A DNA stretch of 64,000 bases from Clostridiales bacterium. GTDB lineage: Bacteria; Bacillota; Clostridia; Christensenellales; UBA1242. The notes beneath the pieces are model-generated. The model ran no database searches. It was not told where the DNA came from and worked only from the letters and a program-made list of their open reading frames with translations. The translations under genes were made by a program, and so were the position numbers. This document shows, one piece after another, positions 12,001 to 14,962 of the stretch (position 1 is its first letter; every line of letters starts with the position of its first letter). Where the stretch lies: contig SVIC01000005.1 of NCBI GenBank assembly GCA_015055515.1, positions 20,550 to 84,549 on the forward strand, read 5' to 3'.

Positions 12001-14962
12001 TGGATATTCGGAGAGTTCTGATTTATCAGACTGTAGATTAGTGGGTTACTTAATTGTTGGAGAGGAGATTCTAATTAACGAACAAATTTCTATATTAGGA
12101 AAAAATAATGTTGGTGGCATTATTGGTAATGCTTATAACACCAACATTAATAATACAATAGCAAGAAACAGTTCTGGACAATTTAAATTATATGTATCTG
12201 GTCAAAACAATATTGGTGGTATAGTTGGAAAATTAGAAAGCGATGAGGATTCTGTAAAATATCTAAATGCTGATGGAGATGAAATAAAGAAGGATGATGT
12301 TGCTAATCATAATATAGTAGTGCCTCAGTACGAGTTGTCTTCATCATATGTTAGAAATGCTCAAATAGATGGTAATACCAACGTAGGTGGTGTCGTTGGT
12401 TACGCTAAAGGTGTACAGATAGTTGGCACAGAGAAAGTGAATGAGAATACTAATGTTTCTGGTAACATTAATGTAGGTGGTGTAATTGGATATTTAGCGG
12501 TTCATGACAATCAAATAGGTAAAGACAACAAAGTCAGATCTGGTATGGATAATACAGAAGAATATCATCCGCTATATACTGCAAAAGTTATAGATTCAAT
12601 TACTAACTTCGCTAATGTATCTGGTAATAAATATATTGGTGGCGTAGTAGGTTATTCAGTTCATAATGGTATTATTGGAGATGATGTAGCTTGTTCAACA
12701 TCAGCTTATGTTCAATACAAACAAGTATTTAGCGATGCATTCTTTACAGATCCAGTAGAAGGGGAACCTGCTCTAGAATTGTATCCAGGAGAGACTATAT
12801 CTGACATGGTTAAGAAATATACAGTAGGTCAAATATTGGAAGCATCAACTACAGAAGTTAATCTTAACAAATTATTATTGGAATGTGCAGTATCATCCTC
12901 TGGAGTGGTTTCGCAAACATATACTGTATCATATTATAATATGAGTTTGGTTACAGACAATCTTAATGTATTTGAGAGGATACCTATTGGTGAGATTGTA
13001 GGTAATAAATATATGGATTTAATGACTTTAACATATATAGGTATATCCGACGATGGAAAGGTAAAGGATGAAAATTACGAATCATATAATAGGATAGAAT
13101 CTGTATATAATGTTATAGATGATGATGGTAATACTGTAGAAGAACATTATGGTATTGCTAGTCCTAGTGAACTAACATATTACAAACGAGAAAAGACACC
13201 TGTTACATTTAATATGACAATAACTTGGACTAGAACAAGTTCTGGAATGTTGCCTGTAATGAAGAATGAGTATTTAGATAAAGTAGAAGTTGCAGATGAG
13301 GATGATCGTAGTACTTCTTATGTGGAACGCAGTTTTGCTTTATATGAAATAGAAGACAGCAGTTTGATATCAAACAAAGTAAAAGAAGCTGCTTTATGGC
13401 ATGCGGTTGATTATATTGACAAATTTGTAATATCAAATGCTCTGTATAATAGAAAGACAGCATTGTTTATTGATGATACGTATTATTGTCCAGATGCAAT
13501 AGTTATTGCAGATTCAGGAAATAAGTATATCCTAAATATCAGCATAGATTATTTGAATAAAGATGGTAGTGAAGGAAAATATAATAAAAATACAGTCTTA
13601 TATGATCTAATAGTTGAAGATATTAAATTTTCCTTTTATAAAGATATGGTTTATTACGGAAACGTTTTCAATAATAATTTTTATAGTTTTACAGATGGCA
13701 TAAAATCATCTACTTTATTCACTACAAAAATAACAGGTGGCGAATGGGATAATAAAAGTACAAAATATCGTGGTTTTAATATTAATAGTAATATTGAACT
13801 TTCAGATACGGGTAAGCGGCTAATAAACAAGTTAAAAGAGACATATTTTGAAAATTATTTTGAAAATAGCCTATTTCCTAGTATGACATATGATCAAAGA
13901 ATAGAAAACATAGAAAAGAAGATTTCAAATTTAACAAATTCTCATAAATACACTGTTTCAACCATTTCTAATGATTTATTTAAAGGATGGATAGAACTGA
14001 CTACTCAACCAAGTTCAGTACAGTGTAAAACTATGGTTATTGATGAATATGTAATTAAGAGCTTCGAGGGTACAGCGTCTGGGATTGGACACAATCTTAG
14101 AAATTCGATATATTGTGCAAACATTTTGGACATTAAAGATTTTAATAACAAAATTAACTTTATAGATCGTGGAGAAAGCGAATATCATATCATATGGCAG
14201 ACTCCAGATGTATACAATCCTACAAAAACTTATGAATTCTCATTCTTGACAGATGAAGATGCAATTAAGGATGCAAAAATATTCTCATATAAGAATGTGT
14301 TACAACCAATGTTCCAGGGCAGTGGCAACGCTGCATGTCTAGCTACATGTTTTGCTATGGCTGGTACAAAATTAGCTAGTACCAATAATCATCATTTCTC
14401 TGTTACAAGTCCTACTAGAAATGAATATGGAGGTGAGACATTCAGAGCTGGAGTGCCATGGTTGGTATCAGATAAATTGACATATCCTGATGGAGTTGCT
14501 GGACAAGGCGCTATTCCAACAAATTCTATTAGTTGCATATTTACATATTGGTACGACAAGGGTATTATTGCAAATGATTGGACTTGGTTAGGAGGCAGTG
14601 ACGAAAAATATGGCAATATGTATAATATCAATGTAAGCAACAAAGGTTGGGGAGATAAAGTAGCCGAGGATATGATAAAAATTGTAGAAAGCAATGATCT
14701 AATAATTCTAGGTTATCAGCATGCATCTAATTCTCATTATGTTGTGATTAGTGAAATAATTGAGTCAGGGAAAAAGATAACATTAAAAGGTTATGATCCA
14801 GGCAGTTCGATTAATAATAAAATAGAAGCAACAATTATCATAAGCGGTGATAATCCTACTCAAGATGAATGTGTAAGCGCATTTGAGGCGTTTGCAAAAA
14901 AATGTCAAAACGGAAGTACATTCCAACACATAAATAATCTTAGGATTTTATCGGCAAAGTAA
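2..14962 (+). CDS. giant repetitive surface/adhesin-like protein with GLUG-type repeat arrays and a C-terminal C39-like cysteine peptidase domain; 5'-partial
   Basis: One uninterrupted frame. The track ORF starts at M218, but I translated nt 2-217 in the same frame (SFYQRQDTTYTGTFEDCYYLVDIRK...SDGNSDDDSSVWY) and found no stop, so the gene continues beyond the left edge. Dozens of (N/Y/F)VGG(I/V)(V/I)GY motifs recur every ~25-30 aa, the GLUG-motif pattern (PF07581-like). Confidence 0.85.
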   Translation, partial: SFYQRQDTTYTGTFEDCYYLVDIRKTQSAINDPAAPIEVISGGTTSTFVDARSFVNFTFSDGNSDDDSSVWYMSPNGPRLINTMTYTFSHRILEGVSEKTSDDIEPGHYTFMDYATIVISDEDGKYVQRKIYIADNGDMTDDLGREVKIDENGKLSIVIDANTSINTNISYEQFNALNRYSALVYISTDGDHVLDLLNIDASEYLRYTFSYTYAEGYQYGSKINPLLVDTADRFVNYITNYAKSEDITDPLDPLGATVSAKVFGGENKYIRQISHLEFDSSDTNVNILQEKKNGIYLKDVIFNGVYDGNSLNISNLNLTEDAETKFHGLFNQMGLIGATSTAVMKNVFVTTREYSTTTSVSNGILAGIMYNTAILNANISTQLNDNNVVNASKFAGGVAGIIVDGKLVDVTVSNIRVMTTIEDIIVPTSLINTNGDYMTWTVANDGGTSNTPSSFTLIELDYNNNIAAELASILASQKSYSYAGAVAGVVINSEVNNYTDISEIRSVNDKVDHRGITVEGDIMISAYNAGGVFGYVSEGTYIYDAELIVRNNPIDNSNTNEIPSYSQMIKGTNFVGGIVADNRGILNRAQVNYPIADQDVIDRAIYTHNSGGATTNKTDTIFSTNQANDGMVVSVGGIAGYNRGGYIIDSYNKVNVTNDNALIAGGILGYADDDTFISYTYTTANVIASEIIGGIIGYASVEKTNSITLDKVIAVNLWDDTVSKIKLDTLKKSGKFGTDNIIIRLPELGNQPIKDAYGVTNLVDGVAYNIPLSDVNAKLDTYIGTVIGFAGVSSKYVDYPTILNTNKYYINTNKVFNISNVISATYSLLNINNDVMSYDAHYNIAHRDLYKSGLPRYDVSQFFIEEADQEKATHVFVGEYVEKANKPANYSGKYYLLQAPEGYNINNVYTDYNYADDIFMTKANDVKNTTQLNLQNILGTFNNLGEATDDITDKEQAENTSQNLFENKYVEYSYDGAGIRGAKTCEINAVFITSTQDLSDPVWKMQNNGVLPEYVIGSYSNFEIIDSSAKLESALSDSNTTKTYALLYNKVNSNSPIEYKIYINDENYTYNYAKFDSVFRGILAGYYYDGNALTESSGTNNIPTINIYTGNSKGIYSLISKLDSAILKNINFNIVVTNDSSDYIDVYGSDGESFGLLATSITNSEITNVNITVTGSSNKAININLVDDAIGEGMNNVKNFGLVFGSSINTTMKGISVSFGTDINVTSGIATTISGAIGYASGNIIETMSVSGAKLFNIQIDNNRKGNNTALNYATVIAKNYYNRIDNLSSDINTKINYYINVATTINTYGLYFDVYGGGLFGYTLSGTLDGSEYKASSAVIDLPRSTSSSPSNAVYYGGLSGYASSHKVTDTNSTLTSITFTADYMHAYVAGIIGYGLSIAMGDDNNVITSKTDISVNPKGSGNYYVAGIIGYDSGSIIKNTVNLGTINIADDRDNESIGTAKVYAGGISAMAINTEYDKVTSYADVKTFQADAHTSLTSDQALLVKDAIYFVGGIIGYARNTKISDFAMMGDIYYVVDDDSALSNFYGGIIGYSRLTSITLNGGQSYARFYASDRSQDKRYNTNLYTIAEGCTAQNTTNVYYIQEFYAKYADLSYSNSDTYVDSKGENVNFALYNGTQVFAYHDIDSFNALEYGKLPTLNNQEYDKITINNNTEVDLKDNFEEFYNKINAKVNYIIVADTTTEVPQPQENSVFVVKPNIEVVSTGDIFMNTLGPDGIISGVKFNASEVNCITSADRKITGYIPFMHTNNGRIFNSIAYGEVEHDFIASSDKKVQISSFVYNNNGDIVRSGSVITYTGKFEFNNIHTEKDGKLESITSNLNFSGFVYNNNGRIADCYSTANIDHINKNEAKRDDNFVVKGAGNTALTTFTTSRMNFAGLVYNQYTSDLNKSNDNIGISGSFHSGRLHDYETNLVRYYTLNSETSLYSKDTYSNFGNNNYDNGYAEALEDGDMMHFIDNDDTAYNIWTKSGSRDINYNMYYINDIAMTRKVEINEVSIVRANKSLYVATGIKARFDNVATSKPFGNNYTADDSEITYATDSPITNGKYYTVYTLETKWNDTNRKYSLFQDESDAIIVETAKDFARLILDYSATAVDKNVYVLADELDMTGLCGGSGIYSVALAKGIYGIGGSGTGVVIKNLTLNSPLVQINTGVISGFVFDNIQVSDSSSAIVAKNSGTIECITIKNTAFTGEGKYIGLVASTNAGTISGVYVTNTSLSVTEKNINGAVGGLVGYNSSGAVSCIYYGNRSASNNSGLSMSVTALRYNVGGLVGENEATINHIAIVNSTISAPSSVSVGGVIGWNKESLTGVSSAGIYALVNNTTIAGENNTGGFVGENEEQIKGCSTKLFLDSVSVSGVSKVGGFAGITSGSISNLYIYDINVNATKDNVGGAIGTTTGNTSVEISNINIYTSNHDIKSNNVNAGGVNVGGLVGNSSALIEDVFVSDINVRSTSTSKNVNIGGVVGYSMVSIGNTNSYVIARGILVNASGNNVGGIVGYITGCDIVNAIVMANVGSKANVLNQITSVLGVNVGGIAGLANDSDISNSVAENITLSGYYKENENNDNVSNVGGIVGSLKDGSVNNVLVTATSSVTNSITTTAGSNDNSRYIGGLVGYLDNATSGTNATSGSLKDCSVVNTYINTPNSDYVGGLVGGYNGPSSVTENSFNKFTGIKEENLKIDYSATNTTIGVNISARSNVGGVIGSIVNDTKCTITISNITLKTININASGTCIGGIIGELINDKSYIYKVSITGGENEDSYSRISSSYKVYAGMEYKNTGVGGIVGYTKSTLIQGENANNDYQISVSNTIIDSALMYTGGIVGHAVGGLASGVTVGLSASDVEKKTAFVLKNVTIKSSTSYIGGVAGFVKGDVNGTYYSKNVTINSTSGSKKVSKIGGLFGELNGTFLNGSSASTYYVFSDTIKITVDNGQYSFDVENPSTITRGIGGLIGVFKMTDSMGSIGAQSIKLEELTMDAAGENIGGVYGYIEKSDNTGKVNLTSGYLYNSTINASGNSQYVGGVAGHVIDVNMVNSIVNLITINVSGNMGHYVGGIVGYTNGDITSASVSDWGNGVNITSPGIYLGGVAGRCDGTINGAHMLSPVTIVSTFSGKFTVYNGTQGVGQTEIYDAYIGGVAGYVNAIGEKDITVQNIKITASKGLVGGVAGYVVGDYKAITNVYGVKLSTSGHSVGGVVGYLGGNMVNGSQSSKSSILVVGVTEYDTISGDSYIGGVVGGGQALRYYDGGDSHYIHNRNTSQTFMAVSNTDMTFINIYKVMMGVATDPTPNAMITNEYTYKFMDKFEDVIAEVKCSDMTATKFQTYLNMNAKSVQLVANDNKVYMFGQDYKYNTTHLYNMYLSLAERLGADISIKFKDVDAKDGTKYKDVMKDISDQTIKRDDIISVTIAEQSSFGTINSGGTSTYYISVDDMIITGANNYVGGVTGFATSDQIIVDNQGHVINTKVTGKNYVGGVIGYANNASALAQGTVKSISVEGTNYVGGFVGYNNGSVNASPYSTKIVVTGNDYVGGLVGLNKTVLNGTMQDSSISGNNYVGGLAGYQLNNIATNNLTAGIINSTVIGRSNVGGIVGKLYSENQSITIGSMFAKYTAVKGSSNVGGLIGEADVYHLYNSEGYYVGVYESTVKSEENITNDYSAVGGIIGHAKINTSESNKAIFIKHADVVKTAVSGMSGVGGIIGVMEGYYAIEQSNIVGDKLGESQILGNTAVGGAIGVLQDSAGCSPAKLYHLSIINVMDYGIGNANTNNVGGAIGYMNSDTNMAQLQGSFNIVNGVHTSPIALGSAEINNNAIGTEYDKYTYSSFGSNTKLAIIGNSNVGGVVGAMGKIVEEDDIDEDLSNNTIEVNNAGFNITNISINGTTNVGGLFGSLDCIDVSELIIDYKTEGKTTNLMDAVSITCNGENAGGIAGKVSNSIFRSGHIKTYSVIVNAQGNNAGGVIGVLENSRYYIETAVLPRINSIADNVGGIIGYSESSDLSDCRLVGYLIVGEEILINEQISILGKNNVGGIIGNAYNTNINNTIARNSSGQFKLYVSGQNNIGGIVGKLESDEDSVKYLNADGDEIKKDDVANHNIVVPQYELSSSYVRNAQIDGNTNVGGVVGYAKGVQIVGTEKVNENTNVSGNINVGGVIGYLAVHDNQIGKDNKVRSGMDNTEEYHPLYTAKVIDSITNFANVSGNKYIGGVVGYSVHNGIIGDDVACSTSAYVQYKQVFSDAFFTDPVEGEPALELYPGETISDMVKKYTVGQILEASTTEVNLNKLLLECAVSSSGVVSQTYTVSYYNMSLVTDNLNVFERIPIGEIVGNKYMDLMTLTYIGISDDGKVKDENYESYNRIESVYNVIDDDGNTVEEHYGIASPSELTYYKREKTPVTFNMTITWTRTSSGMLPVMKNEYLDKVEVADEDDRSTSYVERSFALYEIEDSSLISNKVKEAALWHAVDYIDKFVISNALYNRKTALFIDDTYYCPDAIVIADSGNKYILNISIDYLNKDGSEGKYNKNTVLYDLIVEDIKFSFYKDMVYYGNVFNNNFYSFTDGIKSSTLFTTKITGGEWDNKSTKYRGFNINSNIELSDTGKRLINKLKETYFENYFENSLFPSMTYDQRIENIEKKISNLTNSHKYTVSTISNDLFKGWIELTTQPSSVQCKTMVIDEYVIKSFEGTASGIGHNLRNSIYCANILDIKDFNNKINFIDRGESEYHIIWQTPDVYNPTKTYEFSFLTDEDAIKDAKIFSYKNVLQPMFQGSGNAACLATCFAMAGTKLASTNNHHFSVTSPTRNEYGGETFRAGVPWLVSDKLTYPDGVAGQGAIPTNSISCIFTYWYDKGIIANDWTWLGGSDEKYGNMYNINVSNKGWGDKVAEDMIKIVESNDLIILGYQHASNSHYVVISEIIESGKKITLKGYDPGSSINNKIEATIIISGDNPTQDECVSAFEAFAKKCQNGSTFQHINNLRILSAK
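1180..2110 (+). repeat. GLUG-like coding repeat array 1 inside the giant ORF
   Basis: Successive FAGGVAGI, YAGAVAGV, NAGGVFGY, FVGGIVAD, SVGGIAGY, IAGGILGY and IIGGIIGY motifs. Confidence 0.7.
3440..4690 (+). repeat. GLUG-like coding repeat array 2 inside the giant ORF
   Basis: YGGGLFGY, YYGGLSGY, YVAGIIGY (twice), YAGGISAM, FVGGIIGY and FYGGIIGY motifs at regular spacing. Confidence 0.7.
6430..12700 (+). repeat. GLUG-like coding repeat array 3, the longest, interrupted at about 9780-10350
   Basis: Dense NVGG(L/I/V)VG(Y/E/N) periodicity from AVGGLVGYNSSG to YIGGVVGYSVHNG. The matching DNA strings (gttggtgg/gtaggtgg...ggtta) recur throughout. Confidence 0.75.
14290..14959 (+). other. C39-like (Peptidase_C39_2-type) papain-fold cysteine peptidase domain at the extreme C-terminus of the giant ORF
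   Basis: Ordered motifs MFQGSGNAACLATCFAMAG (Gln plus nucleophile Cys), GYQHASNSHYVVISEI (His) and LKGYDPGSS (Asp). These resemble the Q-x5/6-C...H(F/Y)VV...DP signature of C39 peptidases. Confidence 0.6.

What the first reader, a model, noticed from the sequence alone, without database searches (positions are those of the whole stretch)
14290..14962. C39-like cysteine peptidase domain fused to the extreme C-terminus of the giant repeat protein
The last ~220 aa carry the ordered elements of a papain-fold C39 / Peptidase_C39_2 domain. These are Q-x6-C in MFQGSGNAACLATCFAMAG, His in NSHYVVISEI, and Asp-Pro in LKGYDPGSS. C39 domains are best known as N-terminal leader-peptide-cleaving modules of ABC exporters or as small stand-alone proteins. 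A C39-like module as the C-terminal cap of a ~5,000-aa surface protein is an unusual architecture. It could drive autoprocessing or release of the fibre, act on a neighbouring cell or host substrate, or be a catalytically dead binding module. The ~530 aa before it (about nt 12700-14290) have no motif I recognise.
Basis: partly seen in the sequence, partly recalled or inferred. Interest (0 to 1): 0.7.

Follow-up and report, generated by a model that had tools for sequence, protein, structure and literature searches.

The report
Orphan cap on giant fibre protein
The last 225 residues of a giant gut-Clostridia fibre protein carry residues laid out like a cysteine protease, but no profile, homologue or structure prediction confirms this, and two wild variants carry a stop codon that cuts the domain short.

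Summary
The quoted strings are present at the stated coordinates: Gln4772-x6-Cys4779, His4912 and Asp4932-Pro. Numbering starts at window nt 2. They lie in the last ~225 aa of one open frame that ends at 14962 and is still open at window base 2, so the protein has at least 4,986 aa.

The body is a GLUG-repeat array. The last ~760 aa are non-repetitive, and the final 224 aa are rich in Cys, His and Trp.

The C39 reading could be neither confirmed nor refuted.
- Pfam, NCBIfam, PHROGs and PDB sequence searches gave nothing.
- An exhaustive HMMER scan of 1.84 billion proteins found only a fragment of the same gene.
- Two AlphaFold2 runs failed (pLDDT 34 and 36).
- Home-made C39/C39_2 profiles place their best local matches on the proposed Cys and His, in register. 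The scores are noise-level: 0.3-13% of unrelated natural protein windows score as well.

The architecture has a precedent in Tox-PLC39 caps on polymorphic toxins. However, no immunity gene follows. A terminator and a convergent lipoprotein gene follow instead.

Two metagenome contigs of the same species carry TCA to TAA at nt 14766, which deletes the last 65 aa including Asp-Pro.

Verdict: a plausible (~40%) but unproven divergent papain-fold cap, of modest interest.

The parts
2..14962 (+). Giant ORF of at least 4,986 codons. It is open at the 5' edge of the window and stops at TAA 14960-14962.
   Evidence: There is no in-frame stop between nt 2 and 14959. The ORF listing reports 218..14962 only because 218 is the first ATG in the frame.
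1187..12652 (+). GLUG-motif repeat body, the fibre or stalk part (aa 396-4217).
   Evidence: PF07581 scores 39.1, 23.1 and 22.4 bits in 500-aa pieces against a cut-off of 20.5. There are 56 GG[hydrophobic]2G motifs between aa 396 and 4217.
12677..14287 (+). Non-repetitive orphan 'pre-domain' (aa 4226-4762).
   Evidence: There is no Pfam, NCBIfam, PHROG or PDB match and no homologue. GC is 29.9% against 34.3% in the body.
14288..14959 (+). C-terminal cap (aa 4763-4986), a Cys/His/Trp-rich globular domain and the candidate papain-fold module.
   Evidence: Cys, His and Trp are each 2.2%, against 0.4, 1.0 and 0.2% in the body. The motifs are confirmed. The only hit among 1.84 billion representatives is a fragment of the same gene.
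14315..14338 (+). Gln4772-x6-Cys4779, the proposed oxyanion Gln and nucleophile. Cys sits at the start of the predicted helix CLATCFAMAGTKL.
   Evidence: Predicted helices are H37-54 and H22-35. It is aligned to the family Cys column.
14735..14737 (+). His4912, the proposed general base, immediately before the predicted strand YVVISEII.
   Evidence: It is aligned to the family His column (L103).
14795..14800 (+). Asp4932-Pro4933 at the end of the next predicted strand, the proposed third triad residue.
   Evidence: It is aligned to the C39 DP, and to the DP of phage C39_2 protein L103.
14766..14766 (+). Segregating nonsense site. The window has TCA (Ser4922). Two metagenome contigs have TAA, which removes the last 65 aa including Asp-Pro.
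   Evidence: L001 from JGI 3300024272 and L110 from JGI 3300029705.
14693..14693 (+). Second polymorphic site. AAT (Asn4898) becomes TAT (Tyr) in L110, in VESNDLIILGY.
   Evidence: This site and 14766 are the only two differences in 3,821 aligned bases.
14991..15026 (.). Hairpin of 16 bp flanked by an A-run and a T-run. This is a bidirectional intrinsic terminator shared with the convergent gene.
15068..16153 (-). Convergent 361-aa lipoprotein gene (NCBI MBE5735266.1). It is not in an operon with the giant gene.

Best explanation
The last ~225 residues form a separate globular cap on the free, non-anchored C-terminal end of a GLUG-repeat fibre protein of at least 4,986 aa. The host is an uncultured gut Clostridiales bacterium.

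The most likely single reading is a very divergent papain-fold thiol hydrolase (clan CA) of the C39 / C39_2 type. Gln4772 would be the oxyanion residue, Cys4779 the nucleophile at a helix N-terminus, His4912 the base at the start of a strand, and Asp4932 its orienting partner.

The cap sits at the C-terminus of a fibre, and nothing encoded nearby was identified as an ABC exporter or a double-glycine peptide. It would therefore not act as a leader peptidase. It would act in trans on a peptide or peptidoglycan-peptide substrate outside the producing cell, as an effector or lytic tip, in the manner of Tox-PLC39 caps and phage C39_2 peptidases.

Shown: the residues, their order, the domain's position, its compositional distinctness, the GLUG body, the lack of an anchor, and the lack of an adjacent immunity gene.

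Inferred: the fold, catalysis, the substrate and action in trans.
For: - The motifs are present and ordered.
- The cap is 5x enriched in Cys, 2x in His and 10x in Trp compared with the Cys-poor body.
- Independent profile alignments repeatedly choose the two proposed motifs in the catalytic register:
  - hhalign against C39 matched the His-DP hairpin with P=0.064.
  - hhalign against C39_2 matched the Cys motif.
  - HMMER against the combined profile gave two colinear hits, PMFQGSGNAACLATCFAM on plisqldteeCgvasLAm and ...NSHYVVIS on ...lgHyvvvv. The score was 4.7 bits, reached by 3 of 1000 shuffles and 5 of 1638 natural windows.
  - hhalign against the 19-sequence core gave P=0.0075 and 0.011 on the same two places.
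- A phage C39_2 protein (L103) aligns over 60 aa with helix, strand, His and DP all in register.
- The Cys motif reproduces family-invariant spacing. The family has C-x3-S-x-A-M, and this protein has C-L-A-T-C-F-A-M.
- The secondary structure from both AlphaFold2 runs has the order expected for C39: Cys helix ... helix, strand, [His]strand, strand[Asp], strand, helix, strand.
- The architecture has a precedent in Tox-PLC39 (PMC3482391).
- There is no LPXTG motif or TM segment, so the C-terminus is free.
Against: - No curated profile matches even at E<=10, whereas genuine C39_2 sequences score 1e-31 to 1e-43 in the same tool.
- There is no PDB sequence match.
- There are no homologues at all, so conservation of the triad cannot be checked.
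- Enlarging the profile lowered the score to 0.7-2.0 bits, which 4-13% of natural windows equal.
- Pairwise scores to 20 family members are mostly at chance level.
- MAFFT, and the second-best-scoring of the 20 pairwise alignments (P0005, z=2.5), use another register. There VPWLVSDKL aligns with VPYFSQL, and the family Cys falls on Ile.
- The top pairwise score (L085, z=3.9) is out of register with the catalytic His.
- Both structure predictions are unusable (pLDDT 34.3 and 36.3), and the Foldseek hits are meaningless.
- The motif was picked post hoc from about 20,000 codons.
- Two of three known haplotypes truncate the domain between His and Asp, so it is not under strong constraint.
Confidence: 0.4

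Rival explanations
1. The cap is a non-catalytic, lineage-specific globular tip domain, for example a ligand- or receptor-binding adhesive end of the fibre. The Q..C / H / DP arrangement is then a coincidence, or the relic of a dead papain-like module.
For: - All curated profile, PDB and homologue searches are empty.
- The custom-profile scores are within the range of unrelated proteins.
- The strict motif pattern arises in 4.4% of shuffles.
- The alternative MAFFT/P0005 register lacks both Cys and His.
- Orphan C-terminal domains are common on giant repeat proteins (background knowledge).
Against: - Five Cys and five His in 224 aa is unusual for an extracellular Firmicute protein whose body has 0.4% Cys.
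- The best local profile matches keep landing on the catalytic columns rather than elsewhere.
- The predicted secondary-structure order fits C39.
Confidence: 0.35
2. The cap is a papain-fold module that works in cis. It would autoprocess or release part of the giant protein, as releasing peptidases such as Tox-PLOTU, HINT and caspase-like domains do in polymorphic toxins, or the CPD does in MARTX toxins.
For: This reading rests on the same motif evidence as the main explanation. Zhang et al. note that some papain-like domains in polymorphic toxins are releasing peptidases. A 530-aa orphan region lies directly upstream and could be the released cargo.
Against: - Releasing peptidases normally sit upstream of the cargo they release, not at the extreme C-terminus (and background knowledge).
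- No cleavage motif can be recognised.
- The fold itself is unproven.
Confidence: 0.1
3. The cap is a dispensable or decaying appendage. Whatever it once was, it is currently being lost, and the fibre functions without it.
For: - Two independent metagenome contigs from different samples, on two haplotypes, carry TAA at codon 4922. This deletes 65 aa.
- The only two differences in 3.8 kb both fall in the last 90 codons of the cap. One is nonsense and the other non-synonymous.
- There are no homologues elsewhere.
Against: - The window allele is intact over 14.9 kb with no frameshift.
- GC and GC3 in the cap are like the rest of the gene.
- Only three haplotypes are known.
- Loss-of-function alleles are also typical of functional but conditionally costly effectors.
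Confidence: 0.1

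Closest known systems
Tox-PLC39: C39-like papain-fold toxin domains at the C-termini of polymorphic toxins (Zhang et al. 2012, PMC3482391)
   Same: A proposed C/H/D papain-like module forms the extreme C-terminal cap of a very long repeat-containing secreted protein. These domains are reported in Firmicutes.
   Different: - There is no detectable sequence relationship to any Tox-PL Pfam family.
- The repeats are GLUG, not RHS.
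- No immunity gene lies downstream. A terminator and a convergent gene are there instead.
- There is no evidence of cassette-type C-terminal replacement. The other haplotypes carry the same cap.
Peptidase_C39_2 (PF13529): stand-alone or phage-encoded C39-like peptidases, such as YvpB-like proteins, P0002-P0005 and L103
   Same: - The element order is the same: strand-Q, C-x3-[SC]-x-A-M helix, helix-strand, His-strand and DP.
- The Cys-to-His spacing of 133 aa is similar to that of YvpB-like members (126 aa in the sequence used).
- L103 aligns in register over 60 aa.
   Different: - There is no significant profile score.
- The residue after Cys is Leu rather than the small or polar residues seen in the family members collected here (Gly, Gln, Asn, Glu, Ala, Thr).
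- The motif is Q-x6-C.
- The His-to-Asp spacing is 20 rather than 16.
- The domain is fused to the end of a ~5,000-aa protein instead of being a ~180-aa protein.
Peptidase C39 (PF03412): PEP domains of ComA, PCAT1, LahT and CvaB
   Same: The HfVV...DP hairpin is the best-matching segment. After DP there is a strand-helix-strand tail.
   Different: - Those domains are N-terminal modules of ABC exporters that cleave double-glycine leaders.
- Here the domain is C-terminal, and nothing in the neighbourhood was identified as an exporter or GG-peptide gene.
- The Cys-to-His distance is 133 aa here, against about 73-79 aa.
Protease-controlled giant adhesins and toxins (LapG acting on LapA; the CPD of MARTX toxins). 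This is a functional analogy only.
   Same: A cysteine protease is associated with the fate of a giant repeat protein.
   Different: LapG is a separate periplasmic protein of a different family. The CPD is internal and belongs to a different clan. No sequence similarity was tested or claimed (background knowledge).

Membership tests
Peptidase C39 (PF03412) | Significant match to the family profile | tested here: not met
   Pfam gave no hit at E<=10. A custom 4-sequence profile scored 3.5 bits, equalled by 3 of 1000 shuffles and 18 of 1638 natural windows.
Peptidase C39 (PF03412) | Gln / Cys(helix N-terminus) / His / Asp in order and aligned to the catalytic columns | tested here: inconclusive
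   The residues are present. Local profile alignments put them on the catalytic columns. MAFFT and the P0005 pairwise alignment do not.
Peptidase C39 (PF03412) | N-terminal fusion to an ABC exporter that processes double-glycine leader peptides | tested here: not met
   The domain is at the C-terminus of the giant ORF. The translations read and the Pfam scan of six neighbouring genes did not identify an ABC exporter. The other ORFs of the window were not profile-scanned.
Papain-like fold (clan CA) | Alpha-helical lobe carrying Cys packed against a beta-sheet lobe carrying His and Asp | tested here: inconclusive
AlphaFold2 gave pLDDT 34.3 with a single sequence and 36.3 with C39_2 rows. Only the order of predicted secondary-structure elements agrees.
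Peptidase_C39_2 (PF13529) | Significant match to the family profile | tested here: not met
   Pfam gave no hit, while positive controls scored 1e-31 and 1e-43. Custom profiles scored 0.7-2.0 bits, equalled by 4-13% of natural windows.
Peptidase_C39_2 (PF13529) | Family-invariant columns VP ... C-x3-S-x-A-M ... L..G.P ... H ... G.D ... D..G | tested here: inconclusive
   In the hypothesised register P, C, A, M, H and D are matched, and S is replaced by C. L, G, P and G.D are not matched. This was inspected after the fact.
Polymorphic toxin with a C-terminal Tox-PLC39 domain | Long repeat or filament region preceding the C-terminal domain | tested here: met
   The GLUG array spans aa 396-4217. 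The repeat type differs from the RHS listed for Tox-PLC39.
Polymorphic toxin with a C-terminal Tox-PLC39 domain | N-terminal trafficking or secretion domain | not testable with these tools
   The N-terminus lies upstream of the window. The MAG contig is not in a collection that could still be scanned.
Polymorphic toxin with a C-terminal Tox-PLC39 domain | [quoted passage not shown] | tested here: not met
   The stop at 14962 is followed by a terminator at 14991-15026 and a convergent lipoprotein gene. That gene has no Pfam match.
Polymorphic toxin with a C-terminal Tox-PLC39 domain | C-terminal domain replaced between strains, with orphan cassettes downstream | tested here: not met
   Two other haplotypes carry the same cap at 99.9% identity and differ only by point changes. 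There is no cassette-like ORF downstream. Only three haplotypes are known.
GLUG-repeat proteins (PF07581), for the body of the protein | GLUG motif above the Pfam gathering score | tested here: met
   Three 500-aa pieces scored 39.1, 23.1 and 22.4 bits against a cut-off of 20.5.

The most novel reading that the evidence does not exclude
The cap is the founding member of a new, sequence-orphan family of clan-CA thiol hydrolases. It would be used as the distal effector tip of a ~5,000-aa GLUG fibre in gut Clostridiales, without a cognate immunity gene. It would be switched off in part of the natural population by a segregating nonsense allele between the catalytic His and Asp.
Probability: 0.3. 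Interest if true: 0.5.

Novelty: new variant of a known kind. Interest (0 to 1): 0.3.

Why it matters
If the cap is an active papain-fold enzyme, three things follow.
- It would add a very divergent branch to the C39-like peptidases.
- It would show that GLUG-repeat fibres of uncultured gut Clostridia can carry an enzymatic tip, which is a candidate inter-bacterial or host-directed effector.
- The naturally segregating stop codon would give a ready-made on/off comparison.

If it is not an enzyme, the case is a useful caution. A Q..C / H / DP layout picked by eye from 20,000 codons is close to what chance provides, and curated profiles do not support it.

Either way the practical consequence is small until a structure or an activity is obtained.

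Tried and rejected
- **Curated libraries.** Pfam, NCBIfam and PHROGs were run on the last 224, 247 and 753 aa and found nothing relevant.
- **PDB sequence search.** phmmer found nothing.
- **Homologue searches.** The word-indexed search found nothing for the cap or the pre-domain. The exhaustive search found only a 96-aa fragment of the same gene.
- **Collection scans and tblastn.** GTDB genomes, metagenome contigs, viral contigs and plasmids gave no relatives.
- **AlphaFold2, single sequence.** pLDDT was 34, and Foldseek against PDB returned Sm proteins and lipocalins at TM 0.1-0.2, which were discarded.
- **AlphaFold2 with four C39_2 rows.** pLDDT was 36. MAFFT could not be made to produce the hypothesised register with any boundary or subset tried. 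This run therefore tests little.
- **YvpB-like relationship.** I proposed this by eye from VPWLVSDKLTYPDGVAG against VPLTYSSGLKGDPNDGFVG. I rejected it because the pairwise score is below the shuffle mean, z=-1.
- **C10/streptopain-like reading.** This came from CLATCFAM against CVATATAQ. The pairwise z is 0.07.
- **L085 pairwise hit.** It has z=3.9 but is out of register with the catalytic His, so it is not evidence.
- **Foreign cassette.** A compositionally foreign cap was rejected. The cap has GC 35.9% against 34.3% in the body.
- **Paralogue of the cap elsewhere in the window.** None was found.
- **Anchor.** No LPXTG motif or TM segment was found.
- **Literature look-up of the sample and locus identifiers.** Nothing was found.

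Full report
**What is in the sequence.** The frame that ends with TAA at 14960-14962 is one uninterrupted reading frame. The ORF listing reports it as 218..14962 with 4,914 aa. However, the same frame contains no stop back to window base 2. The protein therefore has at least 4,986 aa, and its N-terminus lies outside the window. I number residues from the codon at nt 2-4.

- MFQGSGNAACLATCFAMAG holds Gln4772 (nt 14315-14317) and Cys4779 (nt 14336-14338).
- NSHYVVISEI holds His4912 (nt 14735-14737).
- LKGYDPGSS holds Asp4932-Pro (nt 14795-14800).

The protein ends 54 residues later. A 16-bp hairpin flanked by A- and T-runs at 14991-15026 terminates it. The next gene (15068-16153) is convergent.

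**Anatomy of the giant protein.** Scanned whole, the protein gave no Pfam hit. In 500-aa pieces, the GLUG motif PF07581 passes its gathering score three times, at 39.1, 23.1 and 22.4 bits against 20.5. Fifty-six GG-hydrophobic-hydrophobic-G motifs run from aa 396 to 4217. After the last one come ~537 aa (4226-4762) and then the 224-aa cap, and neither is repetitive.

The cap stands out in composition. Cys, His and Trp are each 2.2%, against 0.4, 1.0 and 0.2% in the body. There is no LPXTG motif. No hydrophobic segment occurs in the last 760 aa, where the maximum 19-residue Kyte-Doolittle mean is 1.0. The C-terminus is therefore a free end. GC and GC3 in the cap resemble the rest of the gene, and the pre-domain is slightly lower at 29.9%.

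**Source organism.** The neighbouring lipoprotein is NCBI MBE5735266.1 from a 'Clostridiales bacterium' MAG, and the longest contig carrying it is 88,488 bp. InfB is at most 58-61% identical to the uncultured Clostridia MAGs from goat, sheep and chicken gut that the scan returned. The window also carries plsX-rnc-smc-ftsY, nusA-infB and a putative spoIIIA-like operon read from the translations.

**Is the cap a C39-like peptidase? Standard tests.**
- Pfam, NCBIfam and PHROGs returned nothing relevant at E<=10 for the last 224, 247 or 753 aa. Pfam here includes PF03412, PF13529, C70, C10, BtrH_N and the Tox-PL families. HMMER's filters hide matches weaker than about E 0.1-0.3, so this excludes a normal family member but not an extreme outlier.
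- In the same tool, two C39_2-type control sequences scored 1e-43 and 1e-31.
- phmmer against all PDB chains found nothing.
- The word-indexed search of 5.8 billion proteins found nothing.
- The exhaustive HMMER scan of 1.84 billion cluster representatives found a single hit, a 96-aa fragment that is 100% identical and belongs to the same gene.
- The pre-domain is equally orphan.
- Scans of GTDB genomes, metagenome contigs and viral contigs, and tblastn on plasmids, found no relative.

There is therefore no alignment on which conservation of the triad could be judged.

**Structure prediction.** AlphaFold2 on the single sequence gave mean pLDDT 34.3. Foldseek with that model returned Sm proteins and lipocalins at TM 0.1-0.2, which is meaningless. 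A second run with four genuine C39_2 proteins as extra rows gave pLDDT 36.3. In that alignment MAFFT did not place the proposed Cys and His on the family's catalytic columns, so the run tests little.

The only usable output is the order of predicted secondary-structure elements, and it agrees between the two runs.
- A long helix begins two to three residues before Cys4779.
- A helix covers roughly KVAEDMIKIVES.
- The strands are roughly LIILGYQ, then [His]YVVISEII, then KKITLKGY[Asp-Pro], then ATIIISG.
- A helix covers roughly QDECVSAFEAFAKK. In the first run only, a last strand follows (about NLRIL).

From my knowledge of ComA, PCAT1 and LahT structures, this is the order in C39 domains. It is compatible with the hypothesis but does not prove it.

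**Purpose-built profiles.** I assembled real family members from three sources.
- C39 PEP domains of LahT150, ComA and PCAT1 came from PDB alignments, together with CvaB.
- Four C39_2 proteins came from the protein database.
- About 25 further C39_2 or BtrH-like sequences came from metagenome and viral contigs.

With most of these profiles, the best local HMMER or hhalign match fell on one of the two proposed motifs, in register with the catalytic residue.
- The His-DP hairpin matched against C39 (hhalign P=0.064; HMMER 3.5 bits).
- NAACLATCFAM matched against C..tSlAM of C39_2.
- Two colinear hits, Q/C and then His, matched against the combined 9-sequence profile at 4.7 bits.
- The same two places matched against the 19-sequence core, with hhalign P=0.0075 and 0.011 and Prob 4-5%.

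The strength of these matches is the problem. Scores as high as the real one were reached by the following fractions of controls.

| Profile | Composition-preserving shuffles | Unrelated natural 235-aa windows |
|---|---|---|
| C39 (4 sequences) | 3 of 1000 | 18 of 1638 |
| Combined (9 sequences) | 3 of 1000 | 5 of 1638 |
| C39_2 (5 sequences) | 62 of 1000 | 134 of 1638 |
| Larger, more diverse profiles (three 19-sequence versions) | 29-60 of 1000 | 63-212 of 1638 |

The score went down, not up, as the family model improved. The window holds roughly 90 domain-sized segments. A match at the 0.3-1% level, picked out by eye, is therefore about what chance provides.

The simple ordered regular expression occurs in 4.4% of shuffles of the cap's own composition.

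Pairwise Smith-Waterman scores against 20 family members are at chance level, with two exceptions.
- L085 scores z=3.9, but it is out of register with the catalytic His and so is uninformative.
- P0005 scores z=2.5 in a different register. There VPWLVSDKLTYPDG aligns with VPYFSQLNPSDG, the family Cys falls on Ile, and GYD aligns with GYD.

MAFFT also prefers the P0005 register. One phage C39_2 protein (L103) aligns nicely in the hypothesised register over 60 aa (EDMIKIVESNDLIILGYQH..SHYVV..GKKITLKGY.DPGSSINN), but only at z=1.4.

Two ideas I formed by eye failed the shuffle test. One was a YvpB-like internal motif and the other a streptopain-like Cys helix.

**Context and precedent.** Zhang et al. 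(PMC3482391) list Tox-PLC39. This is a C39/ComA-like papain-fold C/H/D domain used as the C-terminal toxin of polymorphic toxins in Bacteroidetes, Chloroflexi and Firmicutes. It is associated with RHS repeats and with Sec, T6SS or PVC export. The general design of a long repeat stalk with a papain-like cap is therefore known.

This locus, however, lacks the feature that paper describes as invariable, an adjacent immunity gene in the same operon. Here a terminator and a convergent lipoprotein gene follow the stop. The genes beyond are a D-Ala-D-Ala carboxypeptidase, an Ig/PKD-like surface protein and unannotatable proteins. No ABC exporter or double-glycine peptide gene was identified nearby, so a classical C39 leader-peptidase role is excluded. 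Ozhelvaci & Steczkiewicz (PMC10318531) describe C39_2 as single-domain peptidases. Several of the C39_2 relatives I retrieved are on viral contigs.

**An unexpected population signal.** Two metagenome contigs from different JGI samples are the same locus. L001 (3300024272, 1,091 bp) matches window 14458-15494. L110 (3300029705, 3,821 bp) matches window 12750-16570 at 99.95% identity.
- Both carry C to A at nt 14766. This turns Ser4922 (TCA) into TAA, 10 codons after His4912 and 10 before Asp4932, and deletes the last 65 aa.
- L110 additionally has Asn4898 to Tyr, which L001 lacks. The stop therefore sits on two haplotypes and is not a sequencing error.
- These are the only two differences in 3.8 kb, and both lie in the last 90 codons of the cap.

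The cap is thus dispensable, or is being lost, in part of the population. This fits a conditionally useful effector or tip domain, and it argues against an essential role. It does not discriminate between a catalytic and a non-catalytic cap.

**Verdict.**
- I put about 40% on a very divergent papain-fold (C39/C39_2-like) thiol hydrolase acting in trans from the free tip of a GLUG fibre.
- I put about 35% on a non-catalytic orphan tip domain whose motifs are coincidental or vestigial.
- The remainder is split between a cis-acting release module and a decaying appendage.

It is not a demonstrable member of C39, C39_2 or the Tox-PL families. If it is catalytic, it would be a new variant of a known kind. 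Interest is modest, at 0.3.

Noticed in passing
window 1-220: The giant ORF has no in-frame stop upstream of the ATG at 218. The frame is open to base 2, so the gene runs off the 5' edge. The protein has at least 4,986 aa and its N-terminus (signal or trafficking domain) is unknown.
   Followed up: yes
window 14766 and 14693; L001:363; L110 (reverse strand): Two metagenome contigs of the same species, from JGI samples 3300024272 and 3300029705, carry TCA to TAA at codon 4922. This truncates the cap by 65 aa. One of them also has Asn4898Tyr. These are the only differences in 3.8 kb.
   Followed up: partly
L001:1-54: The first 54 nt of contig L001 are unrelated to the window and contain in-frame stops. 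Identity begins exactly at window 14458. This is either a contig-end assembly chimera or a real junction inside the cap.
   Followed up: partly
window 15068-16153 (-): The convergent 361-aa lipoprotein (lipobox LLSSC; NCBI MBE5735266.1) is built of two similar halves. Each half contains an H-T-L-C-P-T-C-F motif. It has no Pfam match and its function is unknown. It is always found next to the giant gene's 3' end in the contigs seen.
   Followed up: partly
window 14991-15026: A perfect 16-bp hairpin is flanked by an A-run and a T-run. It serves as a bidirectional terminator between the giant gene and the convergent lipoprotein gene.
   Followed up: yes
window 17983-26972: A cluster of a 1,197-aa Ig/PKD-like protein with a signal peptide and a C-terminal TM anchor, an 893-aa multi-pass membrane protein with a long charged tail, and two acidic proteins of 279 and 545 aa. 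The latter three have no Pfam match. This may be a surface or secretion module.
   Followed up: no
window 34595-36586 (+) and 58715-59824 (-): Two membrane-anchored proteins share a clearly paralogous N-terminal ~200 aa (SYEANNVDATITASGINYA... and SYTANNVDATITATAMNYA...). The first continues into what look like BspA-type leucine-rich repeats (by eye; not scanned).
   Followed up: no
window 218-14959 (method note): Pfam scanned against the whole 4,914-aa protein reported no family at E<=0.01. The same protein cut into 500-aa pieces gave GLUG hits above the gathering score. Very long repetitive queries can hide short-repeat families.
   Followed up: yes
window 49921-54497: A putative spoIIIA-like sporulation operon (AA to AH), identified by eye from the translations and not scanned, lies downstream of truB. 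If correct, it would indicate that the MAG belongs to a spore-forming Clostridia lineage.
   Followed up: no
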